Shown one piece after another: positions 23,180 through 60,056 of a stretch of 64,000 nt of DNA; position 1 is the first letter of the stretch; each line of letters begins with the position of its first letter. Location: NCBI RefSeq assembly GCF_055900595.2, contig NZ_CM148325.1, one strand, 5' to 3'. Made by a program: the position numbers and the translations under genes. The notes under the pieces were generated by a model, which saw only the letters and a program-made list of their open reading frames with translations, was not told the DNA's origin and ran no database searches.

Positions 23180-23215
23180 ATCCCACAATATGAGACGTAG
23201 TTTATATTGTGGGAT
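23180..23215. promoter_or_regulatory. perfect 12-bp inverted repeat (ATCCCACAATAT-N12-ATATTGTGGGAT), candidate operator
   Basis: Arms at 23180-23191 and 23204-23215 are exact reverse complements; located about 60 bp upstream of the IclR-family regulator ATG. Confidence 0.5.
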
Positions 23216-23276
23216 ATATCACCTTTTCCCCACGTCATTATGTGGAACACTTCAGCAATATCATCAGGAGAAACGT

Positions 23277-28930: not shown

Positions 28931-29691
28931 TTCAGCAGACGACGCGCCGCTTCCACCACGATTTTCACCGCATGGCTTTCGGTTTGTTTCATCGTCTCAG
29001 CATTCGGGATCTCTTGTTGGGTACGATTGACGATAACGCCCGCCACCATACCGGCACGAAGGCCCTGGCTTGCACACATGGTCAGCAGGGTTGCAGATTC
29101 CATTTCATAGTTCATTACGCCCATCGCCTGCCACTCTTCCATAGAACCTTTAAAGTGACGAACTACGCGACCAGAGTAAGTATCGTAACGTTCCTGACCT
29201 GGGTAGAAGGTATCAGAAGAAGCCGTCACGCCAACGTGAGTCGTCGCGCCGATGGATTTCGCAGCCTCAACCAGCGCGGTCGTACATTCGAAATCAGCGA
29301 CAGCCGGGAATTCCAGCGGTGCGAAGTGCAGGCTCGCGCCATCCAGACGAACAGACGCCGTGGTAACCAGGACATCGCCAACATTAATATGCGGCTGAAT
29401 AGCGCCCGTTGTACCGATACGCAGGAAGGTGCGAATGCCCAGCTGTGCCAGCTCTTCAACTGCAATAGAGGTAGACGGGCCGCCGATACCGGTAGAGCAG
29501 ACGATAACAGGTTTACCATCCAGCTCTGCACGCCAGGTGGTGAATTCGCGGTGAGATGCCAGCTTAACCGGCTTATCCATCAGCGCGGCGATCTTTTCCA
29601 CACGATCCGGGTCGCCAGGGACGATGGCAAGCGTAGCCCCTTGTAAATCGTTTTTAGTGAGGCCGAGATGAAAAACATCAGACTTGGACAT
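28927..29691 (-). CDS. udp: uridine phosphorylase
   Basis: 253 aa from [31 protein letters not shown]…; the ORF-track first codon is a TTG two codons upstream. Confidence 0.92.
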
Positions 29692-29952
29692 ATACAACTC
29701 CTCTGTGAATCGGTTTAGTCAGAAGAAGCAAAAAGACACTTTACCGAAGGGTTTAACATTTTTTCGTGACACTCATCACCTTGATGCAAATGCGTTGCAT
29801 AAATTTACCCAGCAAAAGTGATGCGAATCACATAAATCACTCTTCATTCTGCATGACTGCATAAAAGATGAGCCGATTCAGGCAATGTGATTTGTTGCAT
29901 GCTGACTATAGTTAACATTGCGCAACATTTTTATAAGGGTACGGAGAATACC

Positions 29953-30768
29953 ATGGCAACAACACAACAATCTGGATTTGCACCTGCTGCATCACCTCTC
30001 GCTTCGACCATCGTTCAGACCCCGGATGACGCGATTGTAGCAGGCATCACCTCTATCCCTTCACAAGGGGATAACATGCCTGCTTACCATGCCAGACCAA
30101 AGCAGAGCGATGGCCTACTACCAGTGGTCATTGTAGTGCAGGAAATTTTTGGCGTGCATGAACATATCCGCGATATTTGTCGCCGTCTGGCGCTGGAGGG
30201 GTATCTGGCTATCGCACCTGAACTTTACTTCCGCGAAGGCGATCCGAATGATTTTGCCGATATCCCTACGCTGCTTAGCGGTCTGGTAGCAAAAGTGCCT
30301 GACTCGCAGGTGCTGGCCGATCTCGATCATGTCGCCAGTTGGGCGTCACGCAACGGCGGCGATGTTCATCGCTTAATGATCACCGGATTTTGCTGGGGTG
30401 GGCGCATCACCTGGCTGTATGCTGCGCATAATCCACAACTGAAAGCAGCGGTGGCATGGTACGGCAAATTAACCGGCGATAAGACGCTGAATTCACCGAA
30501 ACAACCTGTTGATATCGCAACCGATCTTAACGCTCCGGTTCTCGGCTTATATGGCGGCCAGGATAACAGCATTCCGCAGGAGAGCGTTGAAACCATGCGC
30601 CAGGCGCTGCGGGCTGCTAATGCGAAAGCAGAGATTATCGTCTACCCGGATGCCGGGCATGCATTCAACGCCGATTATCGCCCGAGCTATCATGCCGAAT
30701 CTGCGAAAGATGGCTGGCAGCGAATGCTGGAGTGGTTCAGGCTGTATGGTGGGAAGAAGTCGCTGTAA
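29953..30768 (+). CDS. ysgA: dienelactone hydrolase-family protein
   Basis: 271 aa from [14 protein letters not shown]…; alpha/beta-hydrolase with nucleophile in GFCWGG; RBS ACGGAG. Confidence 0.8.
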
Positions 30769-51469: not shown

Positions 51470-51602
51470 TATGGATTGCCTGTAAAGTTCATCGCTTTCT
51501 GCTTTCTATCATCGCAGGAGAAGACGTAAAAGCAAGCGTTTAGCGACTCTTTATGAAGTCTGAACCGCCCCGGGTTTCCTGGAGAGTGTTTTATCTGTGA
51601 AC

Positions 51603-52493
51603 TCAGGCTGCCAGATCATCGTTTCCGATGGAAGCATAATAAGCTTTTTCTGCTTCTGCCGGAGGAGTATGGCCCAGCCTTCCCAGCAATCGTCGATTGT
51701 TATACCAGTCCACCCACGTTAGTGTGGCCAGTTCCACTTCTGCACGGTTTTTCCAGCTCTTACGGTGTATTACCTCCGCTTTGTAAAGACCATTGATGCT
51801 CTCAGCCATCGCGTTGTCATACGAGTCGCCTGTACTCCCTGTTGATGCCAGTAATCCGGCTTCTTTTAGTCGCTCCGTATAGGCCAGTGACACATACTGA
51901 GAGCCTTTATCGCTGTGATGGATGGTGCCAGACGGACGACGGGCCCACAACGCCTGCTCCAGCGCATCCAGCACGAATGTCGTTTCCATAGACGATGAGA
52001 CCCGCCACCCCACGATGTATCCGGCAAACACATCAATGATAAACGCCACATAGACGAAGCCCTGCCATGTGCTGACGTAAGTAAAATCAGCCACCCACAG
52101 CTGGTCAGGTCGTTCTGCCACGAACTGACGGTTTACGCGGTCGCCTGCGGCAACGGCTTTCCGGCTGATGGTCGTACGGACCTTTTTACCCCGGAGAACA
52201 CCGGCAAGTCCCATAACCGCCATGAGACGTGCCACTGTACATCTGGCCACCCTGATTCCTTCCCGTAACAACTGACGCCAGACTTTACGCACACCGTACA
52301 CCTGATGATTTTCATCGTATACGCGCTGTATCTCTCTCTTCAGCCAGTCGTCGTGCTGCGCACGGGCACTGCGTTTATCCGGATGATGTCGCTGTTGCTG
52401 ACAATGGTAATACGTTGACGGGGCAATATGCAGTTCGCTGCATACCGGTCCGACCCCGTACTGCTCACGCAGCTTATCCAGCAGTGGCATCAT
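51603..52493 (-). CDS. IS3-family transposase OrfB (DDE integrase core)
   Basis: 296 aa; rve-type catalytic region (…[24 protein letters not shown]…[10 protein letters not shown]…); 4-bp overlap with orfA consistent with programmed -1 frameshifting. Confidence 0.88.
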
Positions 52494-52816
52494 TTTTTCC
52501 AGAGGCGGTCGAACTCCGCCTTCGCAAAATAAGCGGAAGCCTGGCGAAGGATATCGTTACTGCGGCGCAGTTCACGATTTTCACGTTCCAGCTCTTTCAG
52601 ACGCTGACGTTCAGCGCTGGTGAGCCCACCATCACCGCCCCCGGTATCCCGCTCATGCTGGCGAACCCAGACACGCAGAGTCTCCGGCGTACAGCCAATC
52701 TTTGGAGCAATGGAACAAATTGCCGCCCACTGTGAGTCATATTCATCCTGACTTTCCAGAACCATACGAATCGCCCGCTGACGGACTTCGGGGGAAAAAC
52801 GAGTATTTTTAGTCAT
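52490..52816 (-). CDS. IS3-family transposase OrfA (HTH)
   Basis: 108 aa [61 protein letters not shown]…; matches the IS629 OrfA sequence as I recall it. Confidence 0.88.
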
Positions 52817-52970
52817 CCTGTTTACCTCTTTCTCAGGGAGTTTAGTCTCCAGGATTTCCGGGGCGGTTCAGTCTGAAAAATGAGGAATTGCTGCGAGTAT
52901 AACGCTTACACGTGGGGATTTATGTTTTGCTGGTAGTTTCGTGATCGGCACCTCGCGCCAGGATGGCTTT

Positions 52971-56181: not shown

Positions 56182-58728
56182 TCACGAAAAATACTGCTGT
56201 AATAGCGGCGTGTCGTGATCCTGATTGGCAGGCGGCATGTTGCCGATAGATTTGGTGCGGAACGGAATCACCTGTTCACGACCATCAACCTTCACAATTT
56301 GATAGAACTGCGGCAGGTTGAAGTTGATGAAGCTTGAGCCGTAGGTGAAACGGTCGTGCGAAGACGAGTAGAAGCGACTGACGTCACGCACCAGTTCCTC
56401 TTTGCTGCCTTCGCAGTGGTGATACACCTCAACCCGGTTGCTTTCGTCGAGAATGTAGATATTAAAGCCATTCTCGTCTTGCGTTTCTTCGAAGAAGAAC
56501 TGGATGATCCCTTCGCTGGCAAAGCCGTCCACCACCGCCGGTAATTTGACGTGATTGGTTTCAACCTGCACTGACAGGCCGTGCAGTTTGTTATGCGAAA
56601 TAGCGCCATAAAACTCGATGGCATTTTCCAGTTTCTGTACCGATACATTCAGGCGTTCGAAGAATAAGCCCCAAGTTTGACCAGAAACGCGCAGCGCCTT
56701 GAAGCGCCCGGTTTCCTGGCGGGTGCTGGAAAGACGCAGTTCAATGCACTCAGAAACCAGTTGCTGCACGCGAGTACGGATTAAGCCGCGCAGATGCTGG
56801 CTGTAGCAGAAGACTTCCACGCTATCTGGCGGTGCGGCGTCCTGATGCATTTTGCCGAGAATGGTTTTCAGGGCTTCGATCATCGACTGCTCGCCGTTGA
56901 AGTGCAGCGTACGCACTTCGTTCCACGAGTTGCGGTACAGCAGGTCAACGCTACCTACCAGGCAATTTTGGTTTTCGCCAAAGCTGAAGACGTCCAGCTT
57001 ACGGAAATCAAAATGCACCACCTGATTGCGGAACGCAGCTGTCGGGTCATATTCCAGGTTAACGATAATCGCCAGATGGCGAATTTCACACGGGCTGTAG
57101 AGCGCTTTTGGCGTCGGTGCAGGCAGGCGCAGCGGGAAATGGTGCGACACATCGGCGACCATCTCCTGCAACTTAGGCAAATCGACAATGCCGTTGCCTT
57201 TAATATACAAGCGGGTGCGCGAGGTCAGCAGGCCGTTAAACCATGCCCACGCCACCAGTTTATTCAGGTAACGGTTATATTCCAGCGGCTGATGGCTGAT
57301 GATCGACTCAATATTTGGCGCGCGGTTATACAGATACCAACCTGAACGGTTAGCCCGGCCCGGCGGCACATAAATAAAGGTCAGATTCGGTTCCGAGAGA
57401 TCGGGCGAAATCTGCGGGTTTACCAGCGTCACTTTACCTGGCAATGCTTCAAACGCGGCGTACAGTTTACGCGTCAGAACACCGATATCCTGTGGGCTGG
57501 CGGAGACGCTAAGGTTATTGCGACGCGCAAAGCGGATCAGATTACGGTAGCTCTGCATCATTGCATCGAGCAGCTCGTTGTGCGCCTCACGCACCTGATC
57601 AATCTTCCAGTTAGCGCGGTTATCGAGCATTGCAAGACGACCATCGTCCCATTCCCACTCTTTCACTAACTGGGTTAGCACTTCACGACGCCAGCCTACA
57701 CAGGCGCGTTCACGGCTGAGTTTTTCGCACACTTTTAAATAGAAGCAGCGACGCACTAAATCCAGACGGGTGAAATCTTCAATCGCCGTCAGGTATTCAG
57801 TAACACGCTCCAGCATCATGCAGTACGGATCGAGACCAAACGATACAATCTCGCCGTCGTGCAAACGCTGTTTGATATCTTTCGCCAGCAGACGTGGGTT
57901 CGGGTATTCCCAGGAATAGGCTTCCAGCAGCAGTGTTTTCAGTACCGCTTTGTATGGGGAATCGATACTCTTGTAGAGCTGCCAAAGGCTGGCACCAAAG
58001 TACTCTTCAGCAGAAAGCGAGCTTAAGCCACCGAGATCCAGCCATTCATTTGGCGTCAGCACGCCCTGCGCGTAAAGCGTCATCACATAGTCATCGTAAT
58101 GCTCTTCTTCGTCACACGGCACCATATTCCACAGAATACGCTTACCGGCGAGACGCACGGCGGTACGATAAAATTCGTCAAGCAGCAGTATATGCTGGGT
58201 GGAGCCACAATCTTCGCCCCCCAGGCTGCCGCTTTCATTATGACGGAAGCGATTTTCATCAATCAGGAAGAAGCTAACTTCCACGCCCAGCGAGGCGGCC
58301 CAGCTTTCCAGCAGGCTGCATTTACGTTGTAGTAACTGGCGCTCTTCGCTATCAAGCCAGGATTGATGACAGACCCAGATATCCAGGTCAGAGGAACAAC
58401 TTTGCCCTACGGACGAGGTGCTGCCCATGGTGTATACACCAGTAATTGGAAGCTCACCTTTCGGCGGATCCTGTACTGACATTCCACGATACAGTTCAAG
58501 CTCGTTCAGGTAGTGGCGTTGAGTTTCATCAGGCGTGTAAAGGCAAATGCCTTTGGGAACGTTACCATCAAGGTAACCCGGCATTAGCGGATGGTGATAG
58601 TGCAACAATGTCGGCAGTAGACTGTAGACCTGTTGGAATGCAGGCCCCATAGCAGCAAGCGCGCGATCCACGCGCAATTGATTTATGGCATCCAGTCTCT
58701 GTTTCAGAGTCTCAATATAGAGGTACAA
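56182..58728 (-). CDS. cyaA: adenylate cyclase (class I)
   Basis: 848 aa starting [33 protein letters not shown]…; the initiation codon read on the minus strand is TTG (58726-58728). Confidence 0.95.
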
Positions 58729-59114
58729 GACGTATCGCCTGATTTGCTACCCGTCATGACTGTGATTCCGCCAACATCAACGGTAACACGCGGCATTCGG
58801 GATATTTCGTATGTCAAAGGTAACCGTTACCACTTTTCGCGCCTGGTTTTTTTAGTTTCACGACGAAAAAATGGTCTAAAACGTGATCAATTTAACACCT
58901 TGCTGATTGACCGTAAAGAAAGATGCGCTACATACAAGTGTAGCACCGTTTATTCTCTGTAAATTCCTTATTACGACGGCGTGAAACGCCTGTCAGGATC
59001 CACTGCCAGACCTCATTTTACGGTTTGCGCAGGCGTCTACGTTTCACCACAACACTGACATCGCTCTGGCAAGGATGTTAGGATGGACCACGGATGATAA
59101 TGACGGTAACAAGC

Positions 59115-60056
59115 ATGTTAGACAATGTTTTAAGAATTGCCACACGCCAAAGCCCACTTGCACTCTGGCAGGCACACTATGTCAAAGACAAGTTAATGGC
59201 GAGCCATCCGGGTCTGGTCGTTGAACTGGTACCGATGGTGACGCGCGGCGATGTGATTCTTGATACGCCGCTGGCGAAAGTAGGCGGAAAAGGTTTATTT
59301 GTTAAAGAGCTGGAAGTCGCGCTCCTGGAGAATCGCGCCGATATCGCCGTACATTCAATGAAAGATGTGCCGGTTGAATTCCCGCAAGGTCTGGGGCTGG
59401 TCACCATTTGCGAGCGTGAAGATCCTCGCGATGCCTTTGTGTCCAATAACTATGACAGTCTGGATGCGTTACCTGCAGGCAGTATCGTCGGGACGTCCAG
59501 TTTACGTCGCCAGTGCCAACTGGCTGAACGCCGCCCGGATCTGATTATCCGCTCCCTGCGCGGCAACGTCGGCACTCGCCTGAGCAAACTGGATAACGGC
59601 GAATACGATGCCATCATTCTTGCCGTAGCCGGACTAAAACGTTTAGGTCTGGAGTCACGCATTCGCGCCGCGTTGCCACCCGAGATTTCTCTTCCGGCGG
59701 TAGGACAAGGTGCGGTCGGTATTGAATGCCGCCTTAATGATACTCGCACTCGCGAGCTGCTTGCCGCGCTGAATCACCACGAAACTGCACTGCGTGTTAC
59801 CGCAGAACGCGCCATGAATACCCGTCTCGAAGGCGGATGTCAGGTGCCAATTGGTAGCTACGCCGAGCTTATTGATGGCGAAATCTGGCTGCGTGCGCTG
59901 GTCGGCGCGCCGGACGGTTCGCAGATTATTCGCGGTGAACGCCGCGGTGCGCCGCAAGATGCCGAACAAATGGGGATTTCGCTGGCAGAAGAGCTACTGA
60001 ATAACGGCGCGCGCGAGATCCTTGCTGAAGTCTATAACGGAGACGCCCCGGCATGA
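59115..60056 (+). CDS. hemC: porphobilinogen deaminase (hydroxymethylbilane synthase)
   Basis: 313 aa from [27 protein letters not shown]…; the ORF-track start at 59094 is a seven-codon extension. Confidence 0.95.

What the first reader, a model, noticed from the sequence alone, without database searches (positions are those of the whole stretch)
58881..58899. Candidate CRP-like site in the cyaA / hemC divergent region
The 386-bp region between cyaA and hemC contains ACGTGATCAATTTAACACC, which loosely fits the CRP consensus TGTGA-N6-TCACA. cyaA transcription is known to be repressed by cAMP-CRP. A short inverted repeat GCTACA-tacaag-TGTAGC also lies at 58925-58942. Both are weak by eye.
Basis: inference. 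Interest (0 to 1): 0.2.

Follow-up and report, generated by a model that had tools for sequence, protein, structure and literature searches.

The report
Known CRP operator on cyaA promoter

Summary
The window is E. coli. The string ACGTGATCAATTTAACACC is exactly at 58881-58899, in the 386-bp cyaA/hemC divergent region. In the full 22-bp CRP register it is 58879-58900 (cyaA strand: AGGTGTTAAATTGATCACGTTT).

- **Core match alone:** 8/10 is no better than chance.
- **Matrix score:** a matrix built from 106 published in vivo CRP sites gives 11.1 bits. That ranks third of about 64,000 positions, behind only the two udp-promoter CRP sites.
- **In vivo binding:** published CRP ChIP-seq in ETEC H10407 reports this same 16-mer, CGTGATCAATTTAACA, as the hemC/cyaA site.
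- **Promoter position:** a published cyaA start site at -153 (window 58881) has -35 TTTACG, 17-bp spacing and an extended -10 TGtTAAATT. The CRP site therefore spans -19 to +3.
- **Conservation:** across 77 distinct Enterobacteriaceae upstream regions this is the most conserved 22-nt stretch of the intergenic region (98.9% against a 61% mean).

The best explanation is cAMP-CRP occluding cyaA P2, giving negative feedback on cAMP synthesis.

The inverted repeat is real but lies at 58927-58944, two bases off. It is statistically unremarkable, conserved without compensatory changes, and unassigned.

Verdict: already known, low interest.

The parts
58879..58900 (-). 22-bp cAMP-CRP binding site of cyaA P2 (cyaA strand AGGTGTTAAATTGATCACGTTT). 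Half-site cores are TGTTA (58897-58893) and TCACG (58886-58882). It spans -19 to +3, centre about -8.5, relative to the start site at 58881. Corresponds to MG1655 3990981-3991002.
   Evidence: Matrix scores of 12.3 and 11.1 bits. ChIP-seq site CGTGATCAATTTAACA for hemC/cyaA. It is the most conserved of the 365 possible 22-nt stretches in the intergenic region; only spacer position 9 varies (A/G). The 50-mer around it is identical in 5421 of 5424 E. coli genomes.
58912..58917 (-). cyaA P2 -35 hexamer TTTACG
   Evidence: Read directly from the sequence. Same box reported in Mendoza-Vargas 2009 Table S1 (atctTTCTTTACGgtca, 17-bp spacing). 99.8% conserved.
58889..58897 (-). cyaA P2 extended -10 element TGtTAAATT (TG 58897-58896, hexamer TAAATT 58894-58889). 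It lies inside the upstream half of the CRP site.
   Evidence: Mendoza-Vargas 2009 Table S1: aggtGTTAAATTgatc, extended -10 'yes'. Conservation.
58881..58882 (-). cyaA P2 transcription start, 153 nt upstream of the TTG start codon (the previously known start is 1 nt away)
   Evidence: 454-sequencing start-site mapping, frequency 3, comment 'Known', promoter distance 1. Converted to window coordinates with the cyaA start at 58728.
58726..58880 (-). cyaA 5' untranslated leader (about 153 nt) and the TTG start codon (58728-58726)
   Evidence: ORF call, MG1655 annotation, start site. The last ~16 nt before the TTG and the first codons are invariant; the middle of the leader is poorly conserved.
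58927..58944 (.). Inverted repeat GCTACA-N6-TGTAGC (extendable to 58925-58946), at -63 to -46 from the P2 start. A neighbouring element of unassigned function.
   Evidence: repeat I8. As RNA, -11.2 kcal/mol, z = -2.2. 93% conserved, but no compensatory changes, and the 6-bp stem is intact in 61 of 77 sequences. No held paper contains the sequence.
58819..58833 (-). GalR operator GTGGTAACGGTTACC in the cyaA leader (+49 to +63). A neighbouring element, not part of the CRP site.
   Evidence: Palindrome I3. GalR ChIP-chip peak at 3991055, score 12.4, same 15-mer, validated by ChIP-qPCR (Qian 2016, PMC5110547). Coordinates agree through the mapping.

Best explanation
This is the cAMP-CRP operator of the major adenylate cyclase promoter, cyaA P2.

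The 22-bp site (58879-58900) has one good half-site, AAACGTGATCA, lying between the -10 hexamer and +3. Its other, weaker half-site, AGGTGTTAAAT, contains the extended -10 element. When cAMP rises, a CRP dimer occupies -19 to +3 and competes with sigma-70 RNA polymerase for the -10/start region. cyaA transcription falls, which closes a negative feedback loop on cAMP synthesis.

Shown here:
- The sequence match and its matrix score.
- In vivo CRP occupancy of the identical sequence in another E. coli strain, from published ChIP-seq.
- The position of the start site and the promoter boxes.
- Near-invariance of the site across Enterobacteriaceae.

Taken from literature statements: CRP represses cyaA.

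Inferred: repression works by steric occlusion of the promoter.
For: - **Locus.** It is the E. coli cyaA/hemC region.
- **Matrix scores.** 12.3 and 11.1 bits, rank 4 and rank 3 in 64 kb. The only better hits with the ChIP-derived matrix are the two udp-promoter CRP sites, which serve as an internal positive control.
- **ChIP-seq.** Haycocks 2015 lists CGTGATCAATTTAACA for hemC/cyaA (value 2 in the table's 'FAT' column, whose definition I did not read) among 111 high-confidence CRP targets. MEME was run only on +/-50 bp around each peak. The published coordinates run about 160-230 bp below NC_017633.1 at three control loci as well. After that correction the peak falls on this site and not on the second CRP-like 16-mer 121 bp away.
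- **Promoter.** Start site at -153, -35 TTTACG, 17 bp, extended -10 TGtTAAATT, within 1 nt of the known promoter. The site therefore covers -19 to +3.
- **Rule-based prediction.** The RegulonDB-trained rule 'site within -31..+23 without TTAC or GAGC means repressor' (7/7 accurate) is satisfied.
- **Conservation.** 77 distinct upstream regions from Escherichia, Salmonella, Citrobacter, Klebsiella, Enterobacter, Kosakonia, Kluyvera and others. The site is 98.9% identical against a 61.1% mean and ranks first of 365 22-nt stretches. The 10 nt downstream of the -10 hexamer (GATCACGTTT) are 100% invariant; from general knowledge, sigma-70 places little sequence requirement there.
- **Within E. coli.** The 50-mer is identical in 5421 of 5424 genomes.
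- **Literature.** CRP represses cyaA in E. coli, and in Y. pestis it binds over the cyaA -10 (PMC3050693). CAP binds the cyaA promoter in V. campbellii by ChIP-seq and ChIP-qPCR.
- **From memory, not verifiable here.** Aiba 1985 (J Biol Chem 260:3063) footprinted this site. The 'cya' entry of the classic Stormo-Hartzell CRP data set contains AAGGTGTTAAATTGATCACGTTTT.
Against: - The core is only 8/10, and by the core consensus alone the window holds fewer such matches than chance would give.
- One directly contacted base is lost: G7 becomes T in the upstream half.
- With the 16-bp matrix, 3.8 sites of this score are expected per 64 kb of random sequence, so the score alone would not prove function.
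- Genomic SELEX did not recover cyaA as a CRP target (Shimada 2011, PMC3105977). The ChIP-seq 'FAT' value is only 2, against 4 for udp and 20-45 for the highest entries.
- Conservation is confounded, because the site overlaps the -10 element and the start site.
- The primary footprint papers are not in the held library, and no paper text containing the longer 16-mer version of the site was found.
- From memory: later work (Inada et al. 1996) concluded that transcriptional control of cya contributes little to cAMP down-regulation compared with control of enzyme activity.
Confidence: 0.93

Rival explanations
1. The stretch is conserved only because it is the core of promoter P2 (-10, discriminator, start site). 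The resemblance to a CRP site would then be incidental, with no regulatory consequence.
For: The site overlaps the extended -10 and +1, so the two constraints cannot be fully separated. The core match is at chance level. Genomic SELEX missed it.
Against: CRP occupies exactly this sequence in vivo. The better half-site lies at -9 to +3, where (from general knowledge) sigma-70 promoters tolerate variation, yet it is 100% invariant in 77 sequences. The literature reports CRP repression of cyaA and binding over the cyaA -10 in Yersinia.
Confidence: 0.04
2. The CRP site serves the divergent hemC(DXY) operon as an upstream activator site, rather than or as well as cyaA.
For: The ChIP-seq table lists both hemC and cyaA as neighbours. 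The region is divergent.
Against: The site centre (58889.5) is about 200 bp from the only hemC-side promoter-like match (59055-59084). The conserved hemC-proximal block lies at 59075-59130. From general knowledge this is far outside the usual class I/II positions, and Haycocks reports peaks at about -40.5 and -92.5. The DNA between them, 58975-59050, is poorly conserved.
Confidence: 0.03
3. The inverted repeat at 58927-58944 is a functional RNA hairpin. It would act as a terminator or attenuator for transcripts entering from an upstream cya promoter, or for a divergent transcript.
For: Terminator-like matches were called on both strands. The RNA hairpin folds at -11.2 kcal/mol, z = -2.2. The element sits in a nearly invariant block. 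A GC to GT change in 19 sequences would keep a G-U pair.
Against: No pair shows a two-sided compensatory change. Pair-breaking changes occur in 16 of 77 sequences. The T-run is interrupted (ATCTTTCTTT). There are ten such short inverted repeats in 386 bp. Rfam finds nothing. No start site upstream of it was found in the data I could read.
Confidence: 0.1

Closest known systems
E. coli K-12 cyaA P2 cAMP-CRP operator (Aiba 1985; Mori & Aiba 1985; RegulonDB/EcoCyc CRP-cyaA interaction)
   Same: Same locus and same sequence. The window differs from MG1655 at 3 of 501 bases, none of them in the site. The site overlaps the -10/+1 of the major promoter and represses it.
   Different: Nothing detectable. 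The primary footprint coordinates could not be read in the held library, so identity with the footprinted site rests on my recollection of the published 'cya' CRP sequence plus the ChIP-seq motif call.
Yersinia pestis cyaA promoter CRP site
   Same: CRP binds a region overlapping the cyaA -10 and is said to block RNA polymerase entry (PMC3050693). The negative-feedback logic is the same.
   Different: A different genus. Its sequence was not examined here, and the source cites the data as unpublished.
Other CRP-repressed promoters where the site overlaps or follows the core promoter (proP P1, spf/Spot 42, pck at high cAMP, crp site I)
   Same: Repression follows from the position of a standard CRP site relative to the promoter rather than from a special motif.
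   Different: The crp autoregulatory site lies about 40 bp downstream of the start. The cyaA site lies directly on -10/+1.
Class I/II CRP activator sites, for example the tandem udp-promoter sites in the same window (29765-29780, 29817-29832)
   Same: Same protein and same 22-bp motif family. The scores are comparable or higher, and both loci were found in the same ChIP-seq experiment.
   Different: From general knowledge, the udp sites lie upstream of the promoter and activate it. They are 52 bp apart. The cyaA site overlaps the polymerase footprint and represses.

Membership tests
cAMP-CRP (CAP) DNA binding site | 22-bp two-fold symmetric site with TGTGA-N6-TCACA cores and a 6-bp spacer; scores in the range of known sites with a CRP matrix | tested here: met
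   cGTGA-TCAATT-TaACA, 8/10, 6-bp spacer. 12.3 bits (22-bp matrix) and 11.1 bits (16-bp matrix from 106 ChIP-seq sites), above 10 of 25 and 30 of 106 real sites.
cAMP-CRP (CAP) DNA binding site | Occupied by CRP in vivo or in vitro | tested here: met
   Published ChIP-seq, retrieved here: hemC/cyaA peak with MEME site CGTGATCAATTTAACA in ETEC H10407. That strain's intergenic region differs from the window at 2 of 386 bases, neither in the site. The coordinate offset was calibrated at three other loci. Genomic SELEX did not detect it.
cAMP-CRP (CAP) DNA binding site | cAMP-dependent regulatory effect on the adjacent promoter (here, repression of cyaA P2) | not testable with these tools
   Only secondary statements could be read (PMC3050693; reference list of PMC5772556). 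The primary papers are not held.
cAMP-CRP (CAP) DNA binding site | Position relative to the transcription start consistent with the claimed role (a repressor overlaps the core promoter or start) | tested here: met
   Start site at -153 = window 58881, so the site spans -19 to +3. It satisfies PredCRP repression rule 2.
cAMP-CRP (CAP) DNA binding site | Conserved in orthologous regulatory regions | tested here: met
   98.9% identity over 77 distinct Enterobacteriaceae sequences, rank 1 of 365 22-nt stretches. Both core pentamers are invariant.
Sigma-70 promoter (cyaA P2) | -35 and -10 hexamers at 16-18 bp spacing, with a mapped start 6-8 nt downstream | tested here: met
   TTTACG-17 bp-TAAATT with an upstream TG; start site 7-8 nt downstream. 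The consensus scan missed it because it matches only 8 of 12 positions.
Intrinsic terminator / structured RNA (for the inverted repeat 58927-58944) | Stable stem supported by compensatory substitutions, followed by an uninterrupted U-run | tested here: not met
   No two-sided changes at any of 8 pairs; the stem is broken in 16 of 77 sequences. The tail is ATCTTTCTTT. No Rfam match.
TyrR box (for 58958-58975, noticed in passing) | TGTAAA-N6-TTTACA with invariant G-N14-C; binding by TyrR | tested here: inconclusive
   The window has CGTAAT-N6-TTTACA and MG1655 has TGTAAT-N6-TTTACA. A published matrix scores the MG1655 box at 9.79, similar to many probable false positives in the same table. G, TA and TTTACA are conserved at fixed spacing. 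Binding was not tested.

The most novel reading that the evidence does not exclude
The CRP site itself holds no novelty. The most novel reading left open concerns the DNA just upstream of P2. It carries conserved elements with no factor assigned in anything I could read:
- The nearly invariant block 58907-58946, which includes the inverted repeat at -63 to -46.
- A TyrR-box-like element at -94 to -77 (58958-58975), whose half-elements keep a fixed spacing across genera.

At least one of these could be the binding site of a further regulator of cyaA. For example, TyrR-phenylalanine could account for the published observation that cyaA promoter activity is best explained by cAMP plus L-phenylalanine (PMC5293157).
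Probability: 0.2. Interest if true: 0.35.

Novelty: already known. Interest (0 to 1): 0.08.

Why it matters
The site closes the negative feedback loop in which cAMP-CRP limits synthesis of its own signal. It is a textbook example of CRP acting as a repressor through its position on the promoter.

Confirming it adds no new biology. It does show that the first-stage reader can pick out a genuine, moderately degenerate operator by eye. It also gives a calibrated map of the cyaA control region in window coordinates: TyrR-like box, inverted repeat, -35, extended -10 with the CRP site, start site and GalR operator.

The only open point of some value is what constrains the invariant 40 bp upstream of the -35.

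Tried and rejected
- **Core-consensus counting** (TGTGA-N6-TCACA, <=2 mismatches): 16 found against 25 expected, so it does not discriminate.
- **Consensus promoter scan:** it did not call P2, which matches 8 of 12 positions. It called two other sites near hemC.
- **Primary papers:** Aiba 1984 and Mori & Aiba 1985 are not held. Full-text search for the longer 16-mer found nothing. A 13-mer search found the ChIP-seq paper.
- **Sources for a CRP site list or a cyaA start site that gave nothing:** PredCRP supplement, Cameron & Redfield supplement, Thomason 2015, Kim 2012 supplements, Conway 2014.
- **Second CRP-like 16-mer** at 58761-58776 (8.7 bits): rejected as a chance match. Conservation is 16%, and it lies outside the ChIP-seq motif search range around the peak.
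- **Inverted repeat as a structured RNA:** no covariation and no Rfam match.
- **Annotation from the 100%-identical strain Z0117EC0005:** it did not line up across the window until a ~1.3-kb IS insertion in the window was recognised.
- **Informal comparison from memory** of the inverted-repeat block with motifs for Cra, LexA, OxyR, the mar box, IHF and sigma-54/sigma-E promoters: no convincing match.
- **Literature search for the inverted-repeat sequence:** no hits.

Full report
**1. What is in the sequence**

The window is Escherichia coli. A 551-bp query spanning the region matches 5425 of 5426 complete E. coli genomes, under the annotations cyaA (class I adenylate cyclase) and hemC. cyaA is the 848-aa ORF on the minus strand, 56182-58728, with a TTG start.

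Aligned to MG1655, the region differs at 3 of 501 bases. The mapping is MG1655 coordinate = 4049881 minus window coordinate.

The 19-mer ACGTGATCAATTTAACACC is exactly at 58881-58899. In the standard 22-bp CRP register the site is 58879-58900:
- Plus strand: AAACGTGATCAATTTAACACCT.
- cyaA strand: AGGTGTTAAATTGATCACGTTT.

Against the half-site consensus AAATGTGATCT quoted in PMC1635313, the promoter-distal half, AAACGTGATCA, matches 9 of 11 positions. The other half, AGGTGTTAAAT, matches 6 of 11 and has T in place of the contacted G7.

The inverted repeat is real, but its coordinates are 58927-58944, not 58925-58942.

**2. Is it more than chance?**

By the 10-base core alone it is not. Sites with up to two mismatches number 16 in the window, against 25.4 expected from shuffles.

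Scoring the whole site changes the picture.
- A symmetrised 22-bp matrix from 25 classic footprinted sites, which I wrote down from memory with the cya site left out, gives 12.3 bits. That is rank 4 of 63,979 positions and exceeds 10 of the 25 leave-one-out scores. Random sequence gives 1.9 such sites per 64 kb, or 0.011 in the intergenic region.
- To remove the dependence on memory, I rebuilt the matrix from the 106 other CRP sites in Table 1 of Haycocks et al. 2015. The site then scores 11.1 bits, rank 3 of 63,985, above 30 of the 106 in vivo sites. About 0.023 such sites are expected in 386 bp.
- The only two better hits, 29817-29832 and 29765-29780, lie 52 bp apart in the ysgA/udp intergenic region. 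That is the other locus in this part of the chromosome with a high-confidence CRP ChIP-seq peak (Table 1); the full peak list also has motif-less low-stringency peaks here. The matrix therefore recovers the two loci whose peaks carry a CRP motif.

**3. Direct evidence that CRP binds here**

A full-text search for a 13-mer from the site found Haycocks et al. 2015 (PLoS Pathog, PMC4287617). Their ChIP-seq of CRP in ETEC H10407 lists a peak assigned to hemC/cyaA with the MEME-derived site CGTGATCAATTTAACA. It carries the value 2 in the table's 'FAT' column, against 4 for udp and up to 45 for the highest entries. I did not read the footnote that defines that column. This 16-mer is window 58882-58897.

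The ETEC intergenic region differs from the window at two positions, neither in the site.

The published peak coordinate lies 209.5 bp from the site in NC_017633.1. The same offset of 160-230 bp holds for the udp, yibI and mtlA sites, so it is a difference in coordinate systems. MEME was run only on +/-50 bp around each peak centre. The peak therefore sits on this site, not on the second CRP-like 16-mer 121 bp away.

Against this, genomic SELEX did not recover cyaA, although RegulonDB lists it as a CRP target (Shimada 2011, PMC3105977). That fits a site of moderate affinity.

**4. Position on the promoter**

Mendoza-Vargas et al. 2009 (PMC2760140, Table S1) report for cyaA:
- A start site 153 nt upstream of the gene start (454 sequencing, frequency 3).
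- A -35 box atctTTCTTTACGgtca and a -10 box aggtGTTAAATTgatc.
- An extended -10 TG and 17-bp spacing.
- The comment 'Known', with the start 1 nt from the previously known promoter.

In window coordinates the start is 58881 (or 58882). The -35 TTTACG is 58917-58912 and the extended -10 TGtTAAATT is 58897-58889. The CRP site therefore spans -19 to +3, with its centre near -8.5. It contains the whole -10 element and the start point.

A RegulonDB-trained rule set classifies sites lying within -31 to +23 and lacking TTAC or GAGC as repressor sites, with 7 of 7 correct. This site meets the rule. Retrieved literature states that CRP represses cyaA in E. coli, and that in Y. pestis CRP binds over the cyaA -10 and blocks polymerase entry (PMC3050693). 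CAP also binds the cyaA promoter in Vibrio campbellii.

**5. Phylogenetic footprint**

A scan of one genome per species with the first 250 residues of CyaA returned 80 loci from Escherichia, Salmonella, Citrobacter, Klebsiella, Raoultella, Enterobacter, Kosakonia, Kluyvera, Leclercia and others. Together with the window itself, the loci with enough upstream sequence gave 78 upstream regions, 77 of them distinct.

Aligned, the intergenic region averages 61.1% identity to the window. The stretch 58868-58946 is nearly invariant and is flanked by poorly conserved DNA.
- The exact 22-nt CRP register is the single most conserved of all 365 possible 22-nt stretches, at 98.9%.
- Its only variable position is spacer position 9 (A in 58 sequences, G in 19).
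- Both core pentamers are invariant.
- So are the 10 nt downstream of the -10 hexamer (GATCACGTTT), which carry the better half-site. From general knowledge, sigma-70 places little sequence constraint there.

Within E. coli, the 50-mer around the site is identical in 5421 of 5424 genomes. A 41-mer 70 bp upstream is identical in only 2762 of 5426.

**6. Mechanism and confidence**

The best explanation is the textbook one. cAMP-CRP occupies an operator that coincides with the -10/+1 of cyaA P2 and excludes, or renders non-productive, RNA polymerase. This gives negative feedback on cAMP synthesis.

Binding, position and conservation are shown. Repression is taken from the literature. Steric occlusion is inferred from geometry.

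From memory, not verifiable in the held library: Aiba 1985 footprinted this site, and it is the 'cya' entry of the classic CRP motif-finding data set. Later work (Inada et al. 1996) judged the transcriptional loop a minor contributor to cAMP control.

Rivals:
- An incidental match inside a conserved core promoter is argued against by the ChIP-seq data and by the invariant half-site downstream of the -10.
- A role at hemC is unlikely. The site is about 200 bp from the hemC-proximal promoter-like match and conserved block.

**7. The inverted repeat**

GCTACA-N6-TGTAGC at 58927-58944 lies at -63 to -46 from the P2 start.
- It is one of ten short inverted repeats in the 386 bp.
- As RNA it would form a hairpin of -11.2 kcal/mol, z = -2.2, and it was flagged as terminator-like on both strands.
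- It sits in the invariant block at 93% identity. Across 77 sequences no pair shows a compensatory change, and the 6-bp stem is broken in 16 sequences.
- Rfam finds nothing, and no held paper contains the sequence.

I conclude it is part of a conserved upstream element of P2 whose function I could not assign. Candidates are a regulator site, an upstream promoter or an attenuator. It is not evidence for or against the CRP reading.

**8. Other features of the control region**

- The palindrome GGTAAC-c-GTTACC at 58819-58833 (+49 to +63) is the GalR operator reported for hemC/cyaA by ChIP-chip. The peak is at 3991055 with score 12.4, was validated by ChIP-qPCR, and has the same 15-mer (Qian 2016, PMC5110547).
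- A TyrR-box-like element lies at 58958-58975. It was predicted by Mendoza-Vargas and shows conserved half-elements at fixed spacing with a variable spacer.
- One study found that cyaA promoter activity is best explained by cAMP plus L-phenylalanine (PMC5293157). That makes the TyrR-like box a lead, but nothing more.
- The second CRP-like 16-mer, 58761-58776, is not conserved (16%) and is rejected.

**9. Verdict**

This is the already known cAMP-CRP operator of cyaA P2: ordinary, of low interest and not novel.

Noticed in passing
window 58819-58833 (- strand): Conserved palindrome GTGGTAACGGTTACC in the cyaA 5' leader (+49 to +63). It is the published in vivo GalR binding site for hemC/cyaA: ChIP-chip peak 3991055, validated by ChIP-qPCR (PMC5110547). 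[quoted passage not shown]
   Followed up: yes
window 58958-58975 (- strand): TyrR-box-like CGTAAT-AAGGAA-TTTACA (MG1655 has TGTAAT) at -94 to -77 from P2. The half-elements are conserved at fixed spacing across Enterobacteriaceae, with a variable spacer. A published promoter-activity model needed L-phenylalanine as well as cAMP for cyaA. The element is polymorphic within E. coli: the 41-mer is identical in 2762 of 5426 genomes.
   Followed up: partly
window 58907-58946: A 40-bp block upstream of and including the P2 -35 is nearly invariant in 77 Enterobacteriaceae sequences. By my judgement that is more than a -35 hexamer would require. No assigned factor was found.
   Followed up: partly
window 29765-29780 and 29817-29832: Two strong CRP sites 52 bp apart in the ysgA/udp intergenic region. 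They are the top two matrix hits in the window and served as positive controls. This strain's allele of the region is rare: only 17 of 5425 genomes are >=99% identical over 29500-30100. The spacer bases of both sites differ from the ETEC sites.
   Followed up: partly
window ~51600-52820 (- strand ORFs 52490-52816 and 51603-52493): IS3-family insertion sequence (HTH_Tnp_1 transposase ORF plus rve integrase-core ORF). It accounts for a ~1326-bp insertion relative to the otherwise identical strain Z0117EC0005. It sits next to DKNYY-family genes between cyaY and lptM that are absent from MG1655.
   Followed up: partly
window 23188-23259: Cluster of three CRP-like matches (best 23205-23226, TATTGTGGGATATATCACCTTT, 14.6 bits with the 22-bp matrix). 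They lie in the divergent region between rmuC and an IclR-family regulator gene that heads a strain-variable tricarboxylate-transporter / 2-dehydro-3-deoxygalactonate island. A candidate CRP-dependent promoter, not verified.
   Followed up: no
window 58761-58776: Second CRP-like 16-mer, TGTGATTCCGCCAACA, 33-48 bp upstream of the cyaA TTG (8.7 bits). It is not conserved (16% identity) and lies outside the ChIP-seq motif search range; judged a chance match.
   Followed up: yes
L083-L085 (NC_017633.1, ETEC H10407): The peak coordinates published in Haycocks 2015 are 160-230 bp lower than the positions of the same motifs in the current RefSeq record, at all four peaks (three loci) checked. The published coordinates cannot be used directly on NC_017633.1.
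   Followed up: yes
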